DNA of 63,900 bases, filler included, from Vicugna vicugna (Eukaryota): NCBI GenBank assembly GCA_013265495.1. It is 81 parts of 79 records of this genome, joined end to end, with 100 filler letters (N's around TTAATTAATTAA, not from the genome) between each part and the next. Parts side by side here need not be neighbours in the genome. Positions count along the whole stretch, not along the records: positions 35,440 to 36,092 come from PNXW01002838.1; 80 more parts are not named here. One strand, given 5' to 3'. This document shows positions 7,178-49,195 of this stretch, in pieces. The position numbers and the translations under genes are program-made. Every line of letters begins with the position of its first letter. The first letter of the stretch is position 1. Below the pieces are notes generated by a model. That model worked only from the letters and a program-made list of their open reading frames with translations, searched no databases and was not told where the DNA came from.

Positions 7178-7500
7178 GTCAATCTGATTTTGCAGGGTTC
7201 CCAGGGTTTCTACTATTTGTAGGAGATTGTGGCTGAATTCACCTGCAAGCTGATAATAGTAATAAGAGGAAGAGGCTATGCCACTAATTCCTGTGCCTAC
7301 CCCTGCTGCCACTCCGAGCCCCACTAGCAAGGGGATCAATTGTATAGCTCTTTTTATTCTCCATGGATACTGGTGAGTTATGACACGGATATGTAGACTT
7401 TGATTATTAGGCATAATGTCCATTTGGGGAGTGAGATATGCCACAGCACACAACCCTGCCCTCCCAGCAGAGAGGTGTTGAGTCAGTGTGTACGTATGTT
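7178..7500 (-). mobile_element. env: Endogenous retrovirus env fragment (gamma-type SU/TM junction)
   Basis: LCAVAYLTPQMDIMPNNQSL, furin site RIKR (7349-7360), fusion peptide AIQLIPLLVGLGVAAGVGTG, heptad region ending TLQNQID. Confidence 0.88.
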
Positions 7501-7609
7501 TTTCAGAGTTTACATATCCATTGACATGTCTTCCTCCGAAAATATCGCTCATGGTTTGTTCTCCCACAGATGGACACTAGCTAGAATATCTATTAAAAAT
7601 ATTTGCGCA

Positions 7610-12114: not shown

Positions 12115-13042
12115 TGTTTCCTAGTGCCGGTTGGAAGTTCCTGCGGTTTGCACTTTAAAGCCGAGTTGAAGTTTGTTTCTCCTCTTATATATGTAATGAC
12201 TGGAGTTTGCAACTGAATAGAAACTTTGTGTTCCCTTCAAGTTAGGTGAAGGACGGCTTTCACACACACTTATCTCTCAGAACTGAGCATGTGGAGAGAC
12301 GTTCGTTCATCAGTTCGTTCATCAAGCACAAAGGGAAAGGGTTGCAGGAGAAACACTTACTCTGGTTACTCAGTTTGTTTCCTAGTGCCAGTTTGAACTT
12401 CCTGTGGTTTGCACTGTAAAACCGAGTTGGAGCTTGTTCCTCCCCTTATATATGTATGGAATGGTGTTTGCAAGTGGCAAGAAACTTTGTGTTCCCTTCA
12501 AGCTAGGTGAAGAACGGCTTTCACACACACTTATCTCTCCGAACTGAGCATGTGGAGAGACGTTCGTTCATCCAGTACAAAGGGAACGGGTTGCAGGAGA
12601 AACACATGCTCTGGTTTCTCAACCTGTTTCCTAGTACCGGTTTGAAGTTCCTTCGGTTTGCACTGTAACACCGGGTTGCAGCTTGTACCTCCCCATATAT
12701 ATGTATGGTGTGGAGTTTGCAACTGAAAAGAAACTTTGTGTTCCCTTCAAGGTAGGTGAAGGACGGCTTTCACACACAATTATCTCTCAGAACTGAGCAT
12801 GTGGAGAGACGTTCGTTTATCCAGCACAAGCGGAGCTGGTTGCAGGAGAAACCCTTACTCTGGTTTCTCAGTCTGTTTCCAAGTGCCGGTTTGGAGTTCC
12901 TGCAGTTTGCACTGTAAAACCGTGTTAGAGCTTGTGCCTCCCCATATATATGTATGGTGTGGAGTTTGCAACTGTAAAGAAACTTTGTGTTCCATTTAAG
13001 CTAGTTGAAGGATGGCTTTCACACACACTTATCTCTCAGAAC
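12115..13042 (-). repeat. Satellite C (249-bp monomer)
   Basis: GAAACTTTGTG at 12220, 12481, 12730 and 12979 (spacings 261 including a 12-bp duplication, 249, 249). Confidence 0.95.
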
Positions 13043-17098: not shown

Positions 17099-17327
17099 GG
17101 TAGAGGGTGGGAAGGGATAGACTGGGATTTCAAAATTGTAGAATAGATAAACAAGATTACACTGTATAGCACAGGGAAATATACACAAAATGTTATGATA
17201 AATCACAGAGAAAAAAGTGACAATGAGTGTGCATATGTCCATGAATGTCTGAAAAATTGTGCTGAACACTGGAATTTGACACAACACTGTAAAATGATTA
17301 TGAATCAATAAAAAATGTAAAAAAAAA
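17099..17327 (+). mobile_element. L1 3' UTR end with AATAAA and A-tail
   Basis: GGGATAGACTGGGATTTCAAAATTGTAGAATAGATAAACAAGATTACACTGTATAGCACAGGG...AATCAATAAAAAA. Confidence 0.85.
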
Positions 17328-17721
17328 TCTGCACTTCTATTTAACGATTTTTTTAAATGCAGATTCTTTCAACTAGAAAGCAGTTTGTTAAAATTATTTG
17401 TTTCTCCTTAATTTTGTCTCTTTCTAGACATTTGTCTATTTCTTCAAAGTTGACAAGATTTTTCGAATGTAAGTGTTGACAAAATGATCCCTTTTTTGTA
17501 TATCTGAGCTAACAATTGTTATTTCTCTTCTTTTATATCTTACTTAATTTCTTTGGGGCATCTCTCTATTATTCATGATGCACCTACCTAGAGGTTTTTT
17601 AATTTCGCTTATCTTAAAAAAAAAACAAAAATAATCTTCGGTTTTACTGCACTTTTTTCATAGTTTTCTTTTTCTCTCTAATGTATATTTACACCTGTAA
17701 TATTTAGGATCATGTTTTTAA

Positions 17722-17979
17722 ATTTTTTTAAATTTTCTTTATTGATTTACTGTCATTTTACAAAACTGTCTCCAATCACAGTGTAGAGCACAGTTTTGAA
17801 GTTACAATGAACAAATATACATTTTTTGTCCCATTTTTTCCACTGTGGGTTTCCGTAAGAACTTTTATATATTTCCCTTTGCTATAAAGTACATTCCTAT
17901 TTATCTATTCTACAATTTAGACCTCCCAGTCTATCCTTCCCACACCCCGCCCCCTTGGCTAACAAAAGCTAGTATTCTA
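17722..17979 (-). mobile_element. L1 3' UTR end (antisense)
   Basis: Reverse-complement homologue of 17099-17327. Confidence 0.8.
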
Positions 17980-21980: not shown

Positions 21981-22502
21981 GGTTGTTCTGTCCTGTACAC
22001 CCACAGCCCCGGCGCCCAGCCCCTTGCAGTCCCCCGGAGCTGCCTCTGTGCAGCCGCCCCCGTCCTCCGCCCGGCTTGTGCAGCCTGGCCCTGCCCGCCG
22101 CTGCCGGCCCGCGTCTCAGGCTGGGTGTCGGGGGGATGCTCTGTGCCCGTTTAACTTAGTTCTGTCAGACAAGGGCTGCTCTGTACAGATCCGAGCTTTG
22201 GAGGCTCCCCCTCCGTCCCGCTGGCCTCTCAATTGGAGAGGGGAGACCCAGCGAGCAAGCGCCAGTCCTCCTTTGCCGCTCCCCACGGGACCAGTCCCGC
22301 GCTGCTTTGCCTTTGTTCTTTCTTTTTTCCTTTTCTCCTACCAGATTTTTGGCATCTTTATCTTTTGAAGAGGGCGATGTTCTGTCGGAGTTCCGCAGGT
22401 GCTCTGGTTGGCTGAGTGGGTCTGTAGATGTGGGTCTTGGTGTATTTGTGGGAGAGGGTGACTTACAAGCGTCCTTCTACTCCGCCATCTTGCCCGGAAG
22501 TC
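21981..22502 (-). mobile_element. L1 5' UTR / internal promoter, CpG-rich
   Basis: Minus strand starts GACTTCCGGGCAAGATGGCGGAGTAGAAGG with a YY1 motif at 22482-22492; homologous heads at 35752 and 48717. Confidence 0.8.
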
Positions 22503-22921: not shown

Positions 22922-23210
22922 AACATTTTGTGTATATTTCCCTGTGCCATACAGTGTAATCTTGTTAGCTGAGTAATTTAATGTTGTTAATTATAACCCC
23001 TTTTATTGTATACATTTTTTAACATTTTTATTGATTTGTAATCATTATACAATGTTGTGTCAAATTCCACTGTAGAGCACAATTTTTCAGTTATGCATGA
23101 ACATACATACACTCGTTGTCACATTTTTTCTCTGTGAGCTACCACAAGATCTTATATATATTTCCCTGTGCTATACAGTATGATCTTGTTTATCTATTCT
23201 ACAATTTACA
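22922..23210 (-). mobile_element. L1 3' UTR fragments (antisense)
   Basis: TATTTCCCTGTGCTATACAGT motif occurs twice; reverse complement of the 17099-type tail. Confidence 0.8.
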
Positions 23211-30034: not shown

Positions 30035-30974
30035 TGAAAGCCGTCCTTCAACTAGCTTGAAGGGAACTCAAAGTTTCTTGGCAGTTGCAAAATCCAACCC
30101 ATATATATATATGGGGAGGAACGAGCTTCTACTGGGTTTTACAGTGAAAAAGGCAGGCACATTAAACTGGCACTAGGAAACATACTGAGAAACCAGAGTA
30201 AGTGTTTCTCCTACAATCCGTTCCCTTTGTGCTGTATGAACGAACGTCTCTCCACATGCTCAGTTCTGAGATATAAGTGTGTGTGAAAGGCTTCCATCAC
30301 CTAGCTTGAAGGGTACACAAACTTTCTTGTCACTTGCAAACTCCACTCCTTACATATATATGTTGAAGTACAAGCTCCAACTCGGTTTTTCAGTGAAAAC
30401 GGCAGACACTTCAAACCGGCACAATGAAACTGACTGAGAAACCAGAGGCATTGTCTTCCCTGCAAACCGTTCCCTTTGTGCTGGATGAATGAAATTCTCT
30501 CCACATGCTCAGTTCTGAGAGATAAGTGTCTGTGAAAGCCGTCCTTCACCAAGCTTTAAGGGAACACAAACATTCTTTTCATTAGACAACTACCATTCAT
30601 ACATATATATGGGGAGGTACAAGCTCCAACTCGGTTTTTCAGTGAAAAAGGCAGGCACTTCTAAACGACAGTAGGTAACAGACTGAGAAACGAGTCAGTG
30701 TTTCTCCTGTAACCCGTCCACATTTGCCTGGATGAACGAACGTCTCTCCACATGCTCAGTTCTGAGAGATAAGTGTGTGTGAAAGCCGTCCTTCACCTAG
30801 CTTGAAAGGAACACGTAGTTTCTTGTCATTTGCAAACTCCAATCCATACATATATATGGGGAGGTATAATTTCCAACTCGGTTTTACAGTGAAAAAGGCA
30901 GGCACTTCAAACAGGCACTAAGAAAAAGTCTGAGAAACCAGATTAAGCGTTTCTCCTGCAACCCGTTCCCTTTG
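30035..30974 (+). repeat. Satellite C
   Basis: TGAAAG anchor at 30035, 30284, 30533 and 30780. Confidence 0.95.
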
Positions 30975-35439: not shown

Positions 35440-35615
35440 TTGCCTCTGTACTACTAAGTGGCTGAGTGACTTTGGGTAAGTCATCTAATCTCTCTGTGCC
35501 TAGGATTCCAAATGCTATAAGTGGAGACAATAATCTTCTCACTAATTCCTTTGTGAGGATTAAACATGCAGTGATGTAAAAGTGAGCACTAAACTATAAT
35601 TGAGTGTTACTTATG
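35440..35615 (+). mobile_element. MIR SINE fragment
   Basis: GTGACTTTGGGTAAGTCATCTAATCTCTCTGTGCCT...TTGTGAGGATTAAA core. Confidence 0.75.
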
Positions 35616-35751
35616 ATTATTTTTAAATCTGTTGATTTATGTTCTATCCTATCTCTGAAGAATTTATGAGGCTGGTTTCATCCAAAGACTTAAAAATGAA
35701 AAAAAAATTTAAATCACAAATAGATATAAATAAATAGAATATTTAAAAAAA

Positions 35752-36078
35752 GGAGTGGAGGTATCAAGATGGCTCACAAAGCCTCTCCCACAAATACACC
35801 AAGAATTACATCTACAAATCCACTGAATCACACAGAACACCTGCTGAACTCTGGCAAAGTGTCCCTCACTTTAAAATACGGGAGGATTCTCACAAAATCT
35901 GATAAACAACAAGTCCATACTGTATAGCACAGGGAACTCTATTCAATATCTTGTAGTAACTTATGGTGAAAAATAATATGGAAATGATATATGCATGTTC
36001 ATATGTGACTAAAATATTATGCTGTACACCAGAAACTGACACTATATTGCAAACTGACTATACTTCAATTTAAAAAAA
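35752..36078 (+). mobile_element. Bipartite L1 derivative: 5' UTR head fused to 3' UTR tail (putative spliced retrocopy)
   Basis: 35752-35901 aligns to the L1 head (22502-22342, minus strand); 35902-36078 is an L1 tail; junction AAAATCTG/ATAAACAACAAG. Confidence 0.75.
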
Positions 36079-36192
36079 TGCAAATATATATANNNNNNNN
36101 NNNNNNNNNNNNNNNNNNNNNNNNNNNNNNNNNNNNTTAATTAATTAANNNNNNNNNNNNNNNNNNNNNNNNNNNNNNNNNNNNNNNNNNNN

Positions 36193-48269: not shown

Positions 48270-48465
48270 CCTCCCCTGTGTTTTCTTCAAGAACTTCCAT
48301 GGTTTTATCCCTAAATTTTAGGTCCATGTTTAATTTGCAATATTAGTTTCTTTATATGGTACGAAGTAATGGCCAAAATTCACTTTTTCTGGATGTCCAA
48401 CTTATCCAACACCAAGTGTTGAAAAGGTTGTCTTTTCCCCTCCATTGAAATACGTCGATCTCCTT
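48270..48465 (-). mobile_element. L1 ORF2 fragment (antisense)
   Basis: GGATGTCCAACTTATCCAACACCAAGTGTTGAAAAGGTTGTCTTTTCCCC. Confidence 0.7.
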
Positions 48466-48469
48466 GCAC

Positions 48470-48716
48470 TTTAGCCCAGCTGAATGAACGCTTCTCCACA
48501 CGTTCCGTTCTGGGGTCCGAATGTGTGTGTAAGGAGACCTTCACCTACCCTGTTTGGAACACAGAGTTTCTGGGTTTGAGAGAGAGCCCTACCTATATAT
48601 CTAAGGGGTGGCACTTACTTACACTTGCTTTTAAAGGGCAAACATCCTATAACTTGAAACTGGCTCTAGGAAACATGCTGAGAAGTCAGGGTAAGTGTTT
48701 CAAGATTTACCCTTGT
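48470..48716 (+). repeat. Single diverged C/D-family satellite monomer
   Basis: GAATGAACGCTTCTCCACA, TGTGTGTG...CCTTCACCTA, GGAACACAGAGTTTCT and AAACTGGCTCTAGGAAACATGCTGAGAAGTCAGGGTAAGTGTTTC in the same order as in satellite C. Confidence 0.75.
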
Positions 48717-48892
48717 GGGGAGGGAGGCCAAGATGGTAGAGCAGAAGGACACTGGTAACTCACCCTCTCTCACAAATATACGGAAACTCACATCCACGGA
48801 CCCACTCAGTCAACCAGAGCACCTGCAGAACTCCGCCAGAACATCACCCTCTTCAAAAGACAAAGATGCTAAAAACCTGGTAGGAGAAAAGG
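48717..48892 (+). mobile_element. L1 5' UTR head (about 175 bp)
   Basis: CAAGATGGTAGAGCAGAAGGAC...CCTCTTCAAAAGACAAAGATGCTAAAAACCTGGTAGGAGAAAAGG, homologous to the reverse complement of 22329-22492. Confidence 0.8.
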
Positions 48893-49195
48893 TGGTGTCC
48901 CAGATGGTTCAGTGTGGCTTCCTCGTGAACATTTGTTGTGACAGATTCGGGCTTTGGAATGGTCACGATCTCATTCTGAGGAACGCTCCTGGAAGGTATG
49001 GGCAGACCGTCTTCATCTGCCATCCTTAGGGAACATCCCAGCAGAAGTGTTCCAAGGGCCTCTAGGGGTGATGACTATTCTTGGTGGACTTCGGTNNNNN
49101 NNNNNNNNNNNNNNNNNNNNNNNNNNNNNNNNNNNNNNNTTAATTAATTAANNNNNNNNNNNNNNNNNNNNNNNNNNNNNNNNNNNNNNNNNNNN

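What the first reader, a model, noticed from the sequence alone, without database searches (positions are those of the whole stretch)
35752..36078. Mini-L1 made of promoter head plus 3' tail, joined at an apparent GT-AG splice junction
Seen: 35752-35901 is an L1 5' UTR head (YY1-type CAAGATGGC, CTCTCCCACAAATACACCAAGA, CACCTGCTGAACTC) ending AAAATCTG, followed directly by ATAAACAACAAG...ACTGTATAGCACAGGG and an A-rich end. Two unspliced heads in this window continue CTG|GTAGGA at that point (22342/22341 on the minus strand; 48879/48880). An intact tail reads GAATAG|ATAAACAAG (17146/17147). The missing interior (both ORFs) therefore begins with GT and ends with AG. Known: spliced, retrotransposed L1s (SpIREs) are described in primates. 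Inference: this is a camelid spliced L1 that keeps the promoter start and the tail, and it could seed a non-autonomous SINE-like family. Caveats: the acceptor is A-rich and weak, the copy is diverged, and no target-site duplication is evident before the scaffold ends.
Basis: partly seen in the sequence, partly recalled or inferred. Interest (0 to 1): 0.78.

Follow-up and report, generated by a model that had tools for sequence, protein, structure and literature searches.

The report
Spliced gene-less mini-L1 copies in camelids
This 327-base element is the front end of a LINE-1 (L1) jumping gene joined directly to its tail, the same join recurs in several other diverged copies, and it is likely a DNA copy of L1 RNA from which ordinary splicing removed both genes, a short form not among the published spliced-L1 classes I could read.

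Summary
In detail: 35752-35901 is an L1 5' head and 35902-36078 an L1 3' tail, with nothing between. The join is not unique. In contigs of four public runs, 11 of the 32 listed records bridge it with at least 31 letters per side and differ from this copy by 10-16%. Two camelid gene models leave the L1 head exactly at CTG|GTAGGA. GT..AG at random breakpoints has a chance of about 0.2%. Best reading: L1 RNA spliced from 5'UTR to 3'UTR and copied back in trans, an ORF-less SpIRE-like class. Not shown: the GT in the matched subfamily, copy number, target-site duplications at other loci, and whether the short element propagates itself. This copy is decayed (18-nt deletion in the head, altered poly(A) signal). 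Human SpIREs keep ORF2, and a 2018 survey lists no ORF-less bipartite L1, so this is a new variant of a known kind; unchecked AI notes of this scan already report such elements.

The parts
35742..35751 (+). TTT followed by A7: L1 endonuclease-type site (TT|AAAA on this strand) and candidate left target-site duplication
   Evidence: chance of such a site within a 14-nt span is 0.011 window-wide but 0.086 in this AT-rich flank, so weak
35752..35901 (+). L1 5'UTR head from its G-rich start to the proposed donor; predicted first exon
   Evidence: tblastn of two camelid gene models hits 35784/35796-35876
35765..35773 (+). CAAGATGGC motif (YY1-type label is recalled, not tested), followed by an 18-nt deletion relative to the 48k head
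   Evidence: table 2
35901..35902 (+). Head-tail junction CTG|ATAAAC; the G at 35901 can belong to either side (1 nt of slide)
35902..36071 (+). L1 3' tail; predicted last exon; reads AATTTA at 36067-36072 where three other tails in the alignment read AATAAA
36072..36078 (+). A7: remnant poly(A) and/or right target-site duplication
22336..22500 (-). Comparator: unspliced L1 head of another subfamily, continuing CTG|GTAGGA into GC-rich 5'UTR (361 nt to the contig end)
48716..48892 (+). Comparator: L1 head fragment with CTG|GTAGGA, diverging from the 22k copy 13 nt later
17099..17330 (+). Comparator: L1 tail of another subfamily with G-rich upstream sequence and GAATAG|ATAAAC
23009..23207 (-). 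Comparator: L1 tail with GAATAG|ATAAAC (23194/23193)
17712..17979 (-). Comparator: L1 tail with GAATAG|ATAAAT (17905/17904)

Best explanation
The element is an L1 head joined directly to an L1 tail, the same join occurs in several other diverged copies, and it is likely a retrocopy of an L1 transcript that was spliced from a 5'UTR donor to a 3'UTR acceptor and then likely reverse-transcribed by proteins from another L1. Steps: (1) shown: head and tail abut and the join recurs; (2) shown: AG precedes tails of the matched type, GT follows heads of two other subfamilies at the same register; (3) inferred: a full-length L1 of an older camelid subfamily was transcribed from its own promoter and the spliceosome removed the rest of the 5'UTR, ORF1, ORF2 and the start of the 3'UTR as one intron; (4) inferred: the roughly 0.35-kb polyadenylated RNA, coding for nothing, was inserted by ORF2p acting in trans at a TT|AAAA site, full length because it is short; (5) inferred: most copies arose as separate one-off events from full-length L1 RNAs and are dead, as human SpIREs are.
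For: Recurrence: 11 of 32 listed records bridge 35901/35902 with at least 31 letters on each side (X13 3 of 8, X2 1 of 8, X6 5 of 8, X17 2 of 8), 9.8-16.2% different from this copy, whereas the flank records differ by 3-10 letters in 151-159. Control: an unspliced head forced over 71-76 tail letters gives 46-59 mismatches from that part alone, against 20-30 differences in total for the four records with that much tail; an ordinary tail forced over 65-73 head letters gives 46-51. Three X6 bridging records run on 363, 1174 and 1698 letters beyond the head end of their match, and the listed piece does not extend onto this flank. Acceptor: loose ends before 35901 in 493, 444, 452 and 174 contigs share a consensus ending TATATAAAATA, then G (table 7). 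Donor: CTG|GTAGGA in 2 of 2 other heads, 6 of 9 matches to the recalled donor consensus; gene models EPY76918.1 and XP_072828304.1 stop matching at 22342 and 48879, and their continuation is none of the three unspliced frames in the 361 nt available. Random breakpoints read GT..AG in 0.15% of 200,000 draws, 0.24% with sliding. Three bridging records carry 4 gap letters, the length by which the other two heads differ from this one near the donor, a weak hint of more than one source subfamily.
Against: The GT was not seen in the matched subfamily: no loose-end row behind 35901 was displayed (1204 rows hidden). The acceptor is A-rich with no pyrimidine tract, and the loose-end consensus has only 0.56-0.63 agreement. 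AAAAT lies just before both breakpoints, one base out of register, which could favour a template jump. The gene models may be predictions without RNA support, and both continue with Gly, so their exact boundary is not known at base level. Four of the 11 bridging records have fewer than 45 tail letters, and two of those (X6 r29, X17 r12) are not separated from the unspliced control by the tail part alone. Records in different runs may be the same orthologous locus; the 4-gap records may be one locus and the gap position is not shown. No target-site duplication was read at any other locus. Nothing here separates repeated splicing from amplification of one founder.
Confidence: 0.62

Rival explanations
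1. Born by splicing once or a few times, then amplified as a non-autonomous family from short master copies transcribed from the retained head (a Pol II, SINE-like mini-L1).
For: One shared junction in many diverged records; the element keeps the extreme 5' end and the poly(A) tail, the layout of bipartite non-autonomous LINEs in other clades (Kojima 2018). A spliced human L1 regained activity under a host promoter (bioRxiv 10.1101/2025.02.02.635956, passages).
Against: Human spliced 5'UTRs that keep the first 97 nt have much reduced promoter activity and are called dead ends (Larson 2018). Kojima 2018 lists only RTE, Ingi, Vingi and R2 as sources of ORF-less bipartite LINEs. No diagnostic shared mutations could be read.
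Confidence: 0.2
2. The interior was lost without the spliceosome, by a DNA deletion or a reverse-transcriptase jump at AAAAT/G similarity, and the product was then multiplied by retrotransposition or duplication.
For: 1 nt of exact microhomology (G) and an offset AAAAT at the two breakpoints; weak acceptor; GT not seen in the matched subfamily.
Against: GT..AG by chance 0.15-0.24% (computed on the window's other subfamilies); two gene models leave the head at the same position.
Confidence: 0.13
3. This copy is a one-off: a 5'-truncated L1 tail inserted next to or into an older head, or a misassembled 653-base scaffold.
For: No listed record spans this locus from flank to tail; best runs hold only 0.38 of its sampled words; the window is a chain of short repeat-rich scaffolds.
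Against: The same join is in contigs of all four runs laid, from four studies, at 10-16% divergence; an accident would not reproduce it.
Confidence: 0.05

Closest known systems
SpIREs, spliced integrated retrotransposed elements of human L1 (Larson et al. 2018, PMC5860796; seen: abstract, Introduction, Results part 1 of 4, Discussion part 1 of 2)
   Same: Genomic L1 copy missing a segment bounded by a 5'UTR GT donor and an AG acceptor; recurs at many loci (131 in human); endonuclease-type site and A-rich end.
   Different: The classes described there splice within the 5'UTR or into ORF1 and keep ORF2; here the acceptor is near the 3' end, so both ORFs are inferred lost and mobilisation would be wholly in trans. 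Camelid, about 0.33 kb.
ORF-less bipartite non-autonomous LINEs (RIME, NARTc, Bov-A, Vingi derivatives; Kojima 2018, PMC5786205; seen: passages and section 23 whole)
   Same: Only the 5' and 3' ends of a LINE, no ORF.
   Different: Reported there for RTE, Ingi, Vingi and R2 only, described as internal deletions, and self-amplifying; here L1, junction at splice signals, self-amplification not shown.
HAL1 (half-L1), as described in Kojima 2018 (section 23)
   Same: Internally shortened non-autonomous derivative of the L1 clade.
   Different: HAL1 keeps ORF1; this element has no L1 ORF (longest stop-free frame overlapping it 65 codons; no database match).
Processed pseudogenes mobilised by L1 in trans (Larson 2018 Introduction)
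   Same: Spliced polyadenylated Pol II RNA copied into the genome by L1 proteins.
   Different: The template is L1's own RNA rather than a cellular mRNA.

Membership tests
SpIRE (spliced integrated retrotransposed L1) | Both sides of the junction are L1 sequence, in order and on one strand | tested here: met
SpIRE (spliced integrated retrotransposed L1) | Missing segment ends in AG in the source subfamily | tested here: met
   loose ends before 35901 in 444-493 contigs per DNA run; 3 of 3 informative window tails
SpIRE (spliced integrated retrotransposed L1) | Missing segment begins with GT in the source subfamily | tested here: inconclusive
   GT in 2 of 2 heads of other subfamilies and two gene models leave there; matched subfamily not displayed
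SpIRE (spliced integrated retrotransposed L1) | Same junction at several loci | tested here: met
   11 of 32 listed records bridge it, 5 of 8 within one run with different difference and gap counts; the number of distinct loci is not known
SpIRE (spliced integrated retrotransposed L1) | Target-site duplication, poly(A), endonuclease site | tested here: inconclusive
   TT|AAAA and A7 on both sides, not separable from poly(A); other loci not readable
SpIRE (spliced integrated retrotransposed L1) | Splice event shown in RNA from a full-length L1 | not testable with these tools
   only contigs were served; RNA-library records may be DNA or transcribed genomic copies
SpIRE, published classes (intra-5'UTR, 5'UTR/ORF1) | Acceptor in the 5'UTR or ORF1, ORF2 retained | tested here: not met
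   tail starts about 170 nt before the A-run; no ORF sequence
ORF-less bipartite non-autonomous LINE family | Only 5' and 3' ends of the parent LINE | tested here: met
ORF-less bipartite non-autonomous LINE family | Amplifies from short master copies (own clade, shared diagnostic changes) | not testable with these tools
   no genome held; contig letters of bridging records not returned; collection scans gave no camelid loci
SINE (Pol III, small-RNA-derived head) | Head derived from tRNA, 7SL or 5S RNA | tested here: not met
   no Rfam match at E up to 1; head is L1 5'UTR
HAL1 | Retains ORF1 | tested here: not met

The most novel reading that the evidence does not exclude
A splice-born, ORF-less mini-L1 became a self-propagating non-autonomous family in camelids, transcribed from the retained L1 head and mobilised in trans: a bipartite L1 of the kind so far listed only for RTE, Ingi, Vingi and R2, and a route to a SINE-like parasite that needs no Pol III promoter.
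Probability: 0.2. Interest if true: 0.75.

Novelty: new variant of a known kind. Interest (0 to 1): 0.52.

Why it matters
If splicing can remove both L1 genes and the product is still copied repeatedly, the fossil record gives a direct measure of how often a non-coding L1 RNA captures L1 proteins in trans against cis preference, and of splicing as a brake on L1 outside primates. It also offers a concrete origin for ORF-less bipartite L1 elements, which a 2018 survey did not list. Comparing joined with unspliced copies in one camelid assembly would test whether such products are dead ends or founders. This single copy is decayed and has no function of its own in evidence.

Tried and rejected
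No whole genome is held, so no genome-wide count. A 21-letter junction/donor pattern found nothing in viral contigs and 10 metagenome loci, none with similarity to the scaffold beyond the pattern. A head motif in prokaryote genomes and viral contigs and a tail motif in viral contigs found nothing; blastn against plasmids and phages found nothing. A protein search with the 65-codon frame across the junction found no candidate. Searches with the 22k head frame returned only P0002 and P0003, neither a head-tail product, so the junction was not shown in that subfamily. The element folds no better than shuffles (z -0.07) and has no Rfam match. Depth was not used as copy number, as the tool states; RNA-library bridging records were not taken as evidence of transcription or ongoing splicing. 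Four records that cross the junction with fewer than 31 tail letters (X13 r2, X2 r19, X6 r27, X17 r10) were left out of the count of 11. The control with the 17.9k tail was two bases out of register and is not cited. A TACTAAC branch-like word appears in the loose-end consensus of 1 of 4 runs only and is not relied on. Belancio 2006 is not held and was not seen. Literature searches (listings only, except the papers named) showed no camelid or ORF-less spliced L1; Repbase and Dfam could not be searched and no supplements were opened, so a deposited consensus (for example in the PMC8605555 library) is not excluded.

Full report
Setting. The window is a chain of short scaffolds separated by N runs and a 12-base spacer. 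The finding lies in a 653-base, AT-rich scaffold, 35440-36092. No whole genome is held. A translation of a related L1 head in the window matches gene models of Camelus ferus (91%) and Vicugna pacos (98%), which supports a camelid origin without fixing the species.

Observation. 35752-35901 aligns to two other L1 heads in the window and ends in register with their CTG; both continue GTAGGA. 35902-36078 aligns to six other tail pieces, and the three that reach upstream read GAATAG|ATAAA. The copy is decayed: 18 nt are missing just after CAAGATGG relative to the 48k head, and the 3' end reads AATTTA where three aligned tails read AATAAA. TTT followed by A7 precedes the head and A7 ends the tail; this fits an endonuclease site with an all-A duplication but is weak in this flank (0.086 by chance).

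Is the join real and recurrent? I laid contigs of 4 of the 24 listed runs (three probable DNA runs of three coded organisms, one RNA library) on the scaffold at 80% likeness. The tool listed 32 records, the longest of about 67,000. Fifteen cross the junction and 11 do so with at least 31 letters on each side (X13 3 of 8, X2 1 of 8, X6 5 of 8, X17 2 of 8). They differ from this copy by 9.8-16.2%, while the four flank records differ by 3-10 letters in 151-159, so they are not simply this locus. As a control, an unspliced head forced across 71-76 tail letters gives 46-59 mismatches, but the four records with that much tail carry 20-30 differences in all. Two of the shorter ones (X6 r29, X17 r12) are not separated from the control by the tail part alone. 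Within X6 the five records have different difference and gap counts, and three run on for 363-1698 letters past the head end of their match. So the joined form exists as several diverged sequences. How many loci that means cannot be read: depth is not a copy number, and records in different runs may be orthologues. No listed record spans this locus from flank into head, so this one scaffold is not independently confirmed.

Splice signals. In 493, 444, 452 and 174 contigs the alignment starts at 35901 and the loose letters before it end TATATAAAATA (agreement 0.56-0.63). With the G at 35901 this is AG directly before the tail in the matched type. The donor of the matched subfamily was not displayed. 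Indirect support: EPY76918.1 and XP_072828304.1 match the head translation and stop at 22342 and 48879, the bases before GTAGGA, and continue with sequence that is none of the three unspliced frames in the 361 nt available. Whether those models rest on RNA, on prediction or on spliced genomic copies I could not see. Random breakpoints between the window's head and tails read GT..AG in 0.15% of 200,000 draws, 0.24% allowing slide. Against this, AAAAT lies before both breakpoints one base out of register and the G is shared, which a template jump could use.

Mechanism. Most likely (0.62) a full-length L1 of an older subfamily was transcribed, spliced from the donor about 170 nt into the 5'UTR to the acceptor about 170 nt before the poly(A), and the short non-coding RNA was inserted by ORF2p from another L1; this happened repeatedly and the copies are dead. 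That both ORFs lie in the removed part follows from general L1 anatomy; no full-length camelid L1 was available to measure it. Rivals: a splice-born master that then amplified (0.20); a non-spliceosomal deletion later multiplied (0.13); an accident or misassembly (0.05). Three bridging records have 4 gap letters, the length difference between this head and the other two near the donor, a weak hint of several source subfamilies; they may equally be one locus.

Comparison with what is known. Larson et al. [quoted passage not shown] The camelid repeat survey PMC8605555 (passages) reports MIRs as nearly all SINEs, and the passages shown mention no such element. Passages of PMC13756887, PMC5860798 and bioRxiv 10.1101/2025.02.02.635956 add no ORF-less class; the last describes a SpIRE revived by a host promoter. 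Belancio 2006 was not available, and Repbase, Dfam and supplements were not seen, so prior description is not excluded. The element works like a SpIRE but fails the published classes on acceptor position; it has the layout of a bipartite LINE, with self-amplification untested.

Earlier notes of this scan (AI notes, unchecked) report a spliced mini-L1 with several hundred copies in this same genome and similar elements in other genomes. I read them after one search had shown recurrence. Look-ups by sequence found no look-alike, so I cannot say that they are the same subfamily; they are not counted as support, but they mean the finding is probably not new within the scan.

Verdict. Real, recurrent, likely splice-born; a new variant of a known kind. 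Interest 0.52; 0.75 if the family proves self-propagating (probability 0.2).

Noticed in passing
window 48462-49095: An L1 head fragment (48716-48892) directly follows a unit of a roughly 240-bp tandem repeat (also at 12115-13042 and 30035-30974) and leaves L1-like sequence 13 nt after the donor; what follows has no match elsewhere in the window.
   Followed up: partly
P0002 (EPY76918.1) and P0003 (XP_072828304.1): Two camelid 'uncharacterised protein' models contain translated L1 5'UTR head, both leave it at the same donor, and share a short RAERAAA stretch further on; they may be intra-5'UTR splice forms of L1 rather than genes.
   Followed up: partly
window 22922-22966 (minus): A truncated L1 tail whose match begins about 3 nt downstream of the acceptor position; the tail at 1040 also starts at that position but at a scaffold edge.
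   Followed up: no
table 7, before 35920: 213-230 contigs per DNA run carry an A-run and a variant 11-letter word directly before the tail core, a second class of 5' context for these tails.
   Followed up: no
window 35450-35620: The upstream flank looks like an old MIR remnant (label recalled, not tested; low repeat depth at 35462-35505), i.e. ordinary genomic DNA rather than L1.
   Followed up: no
window 7178-7576 (minus): A stop-free frame resembling a retroviral envelope transmembrane region (resemblance recalled); described only.
   Followed up: no
table 5, run X17: One RNA-library contig goes from the tail end (36076) back to the head (35782), a tail-to-head arrangement with unknown sequence between.
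   Followed up: no
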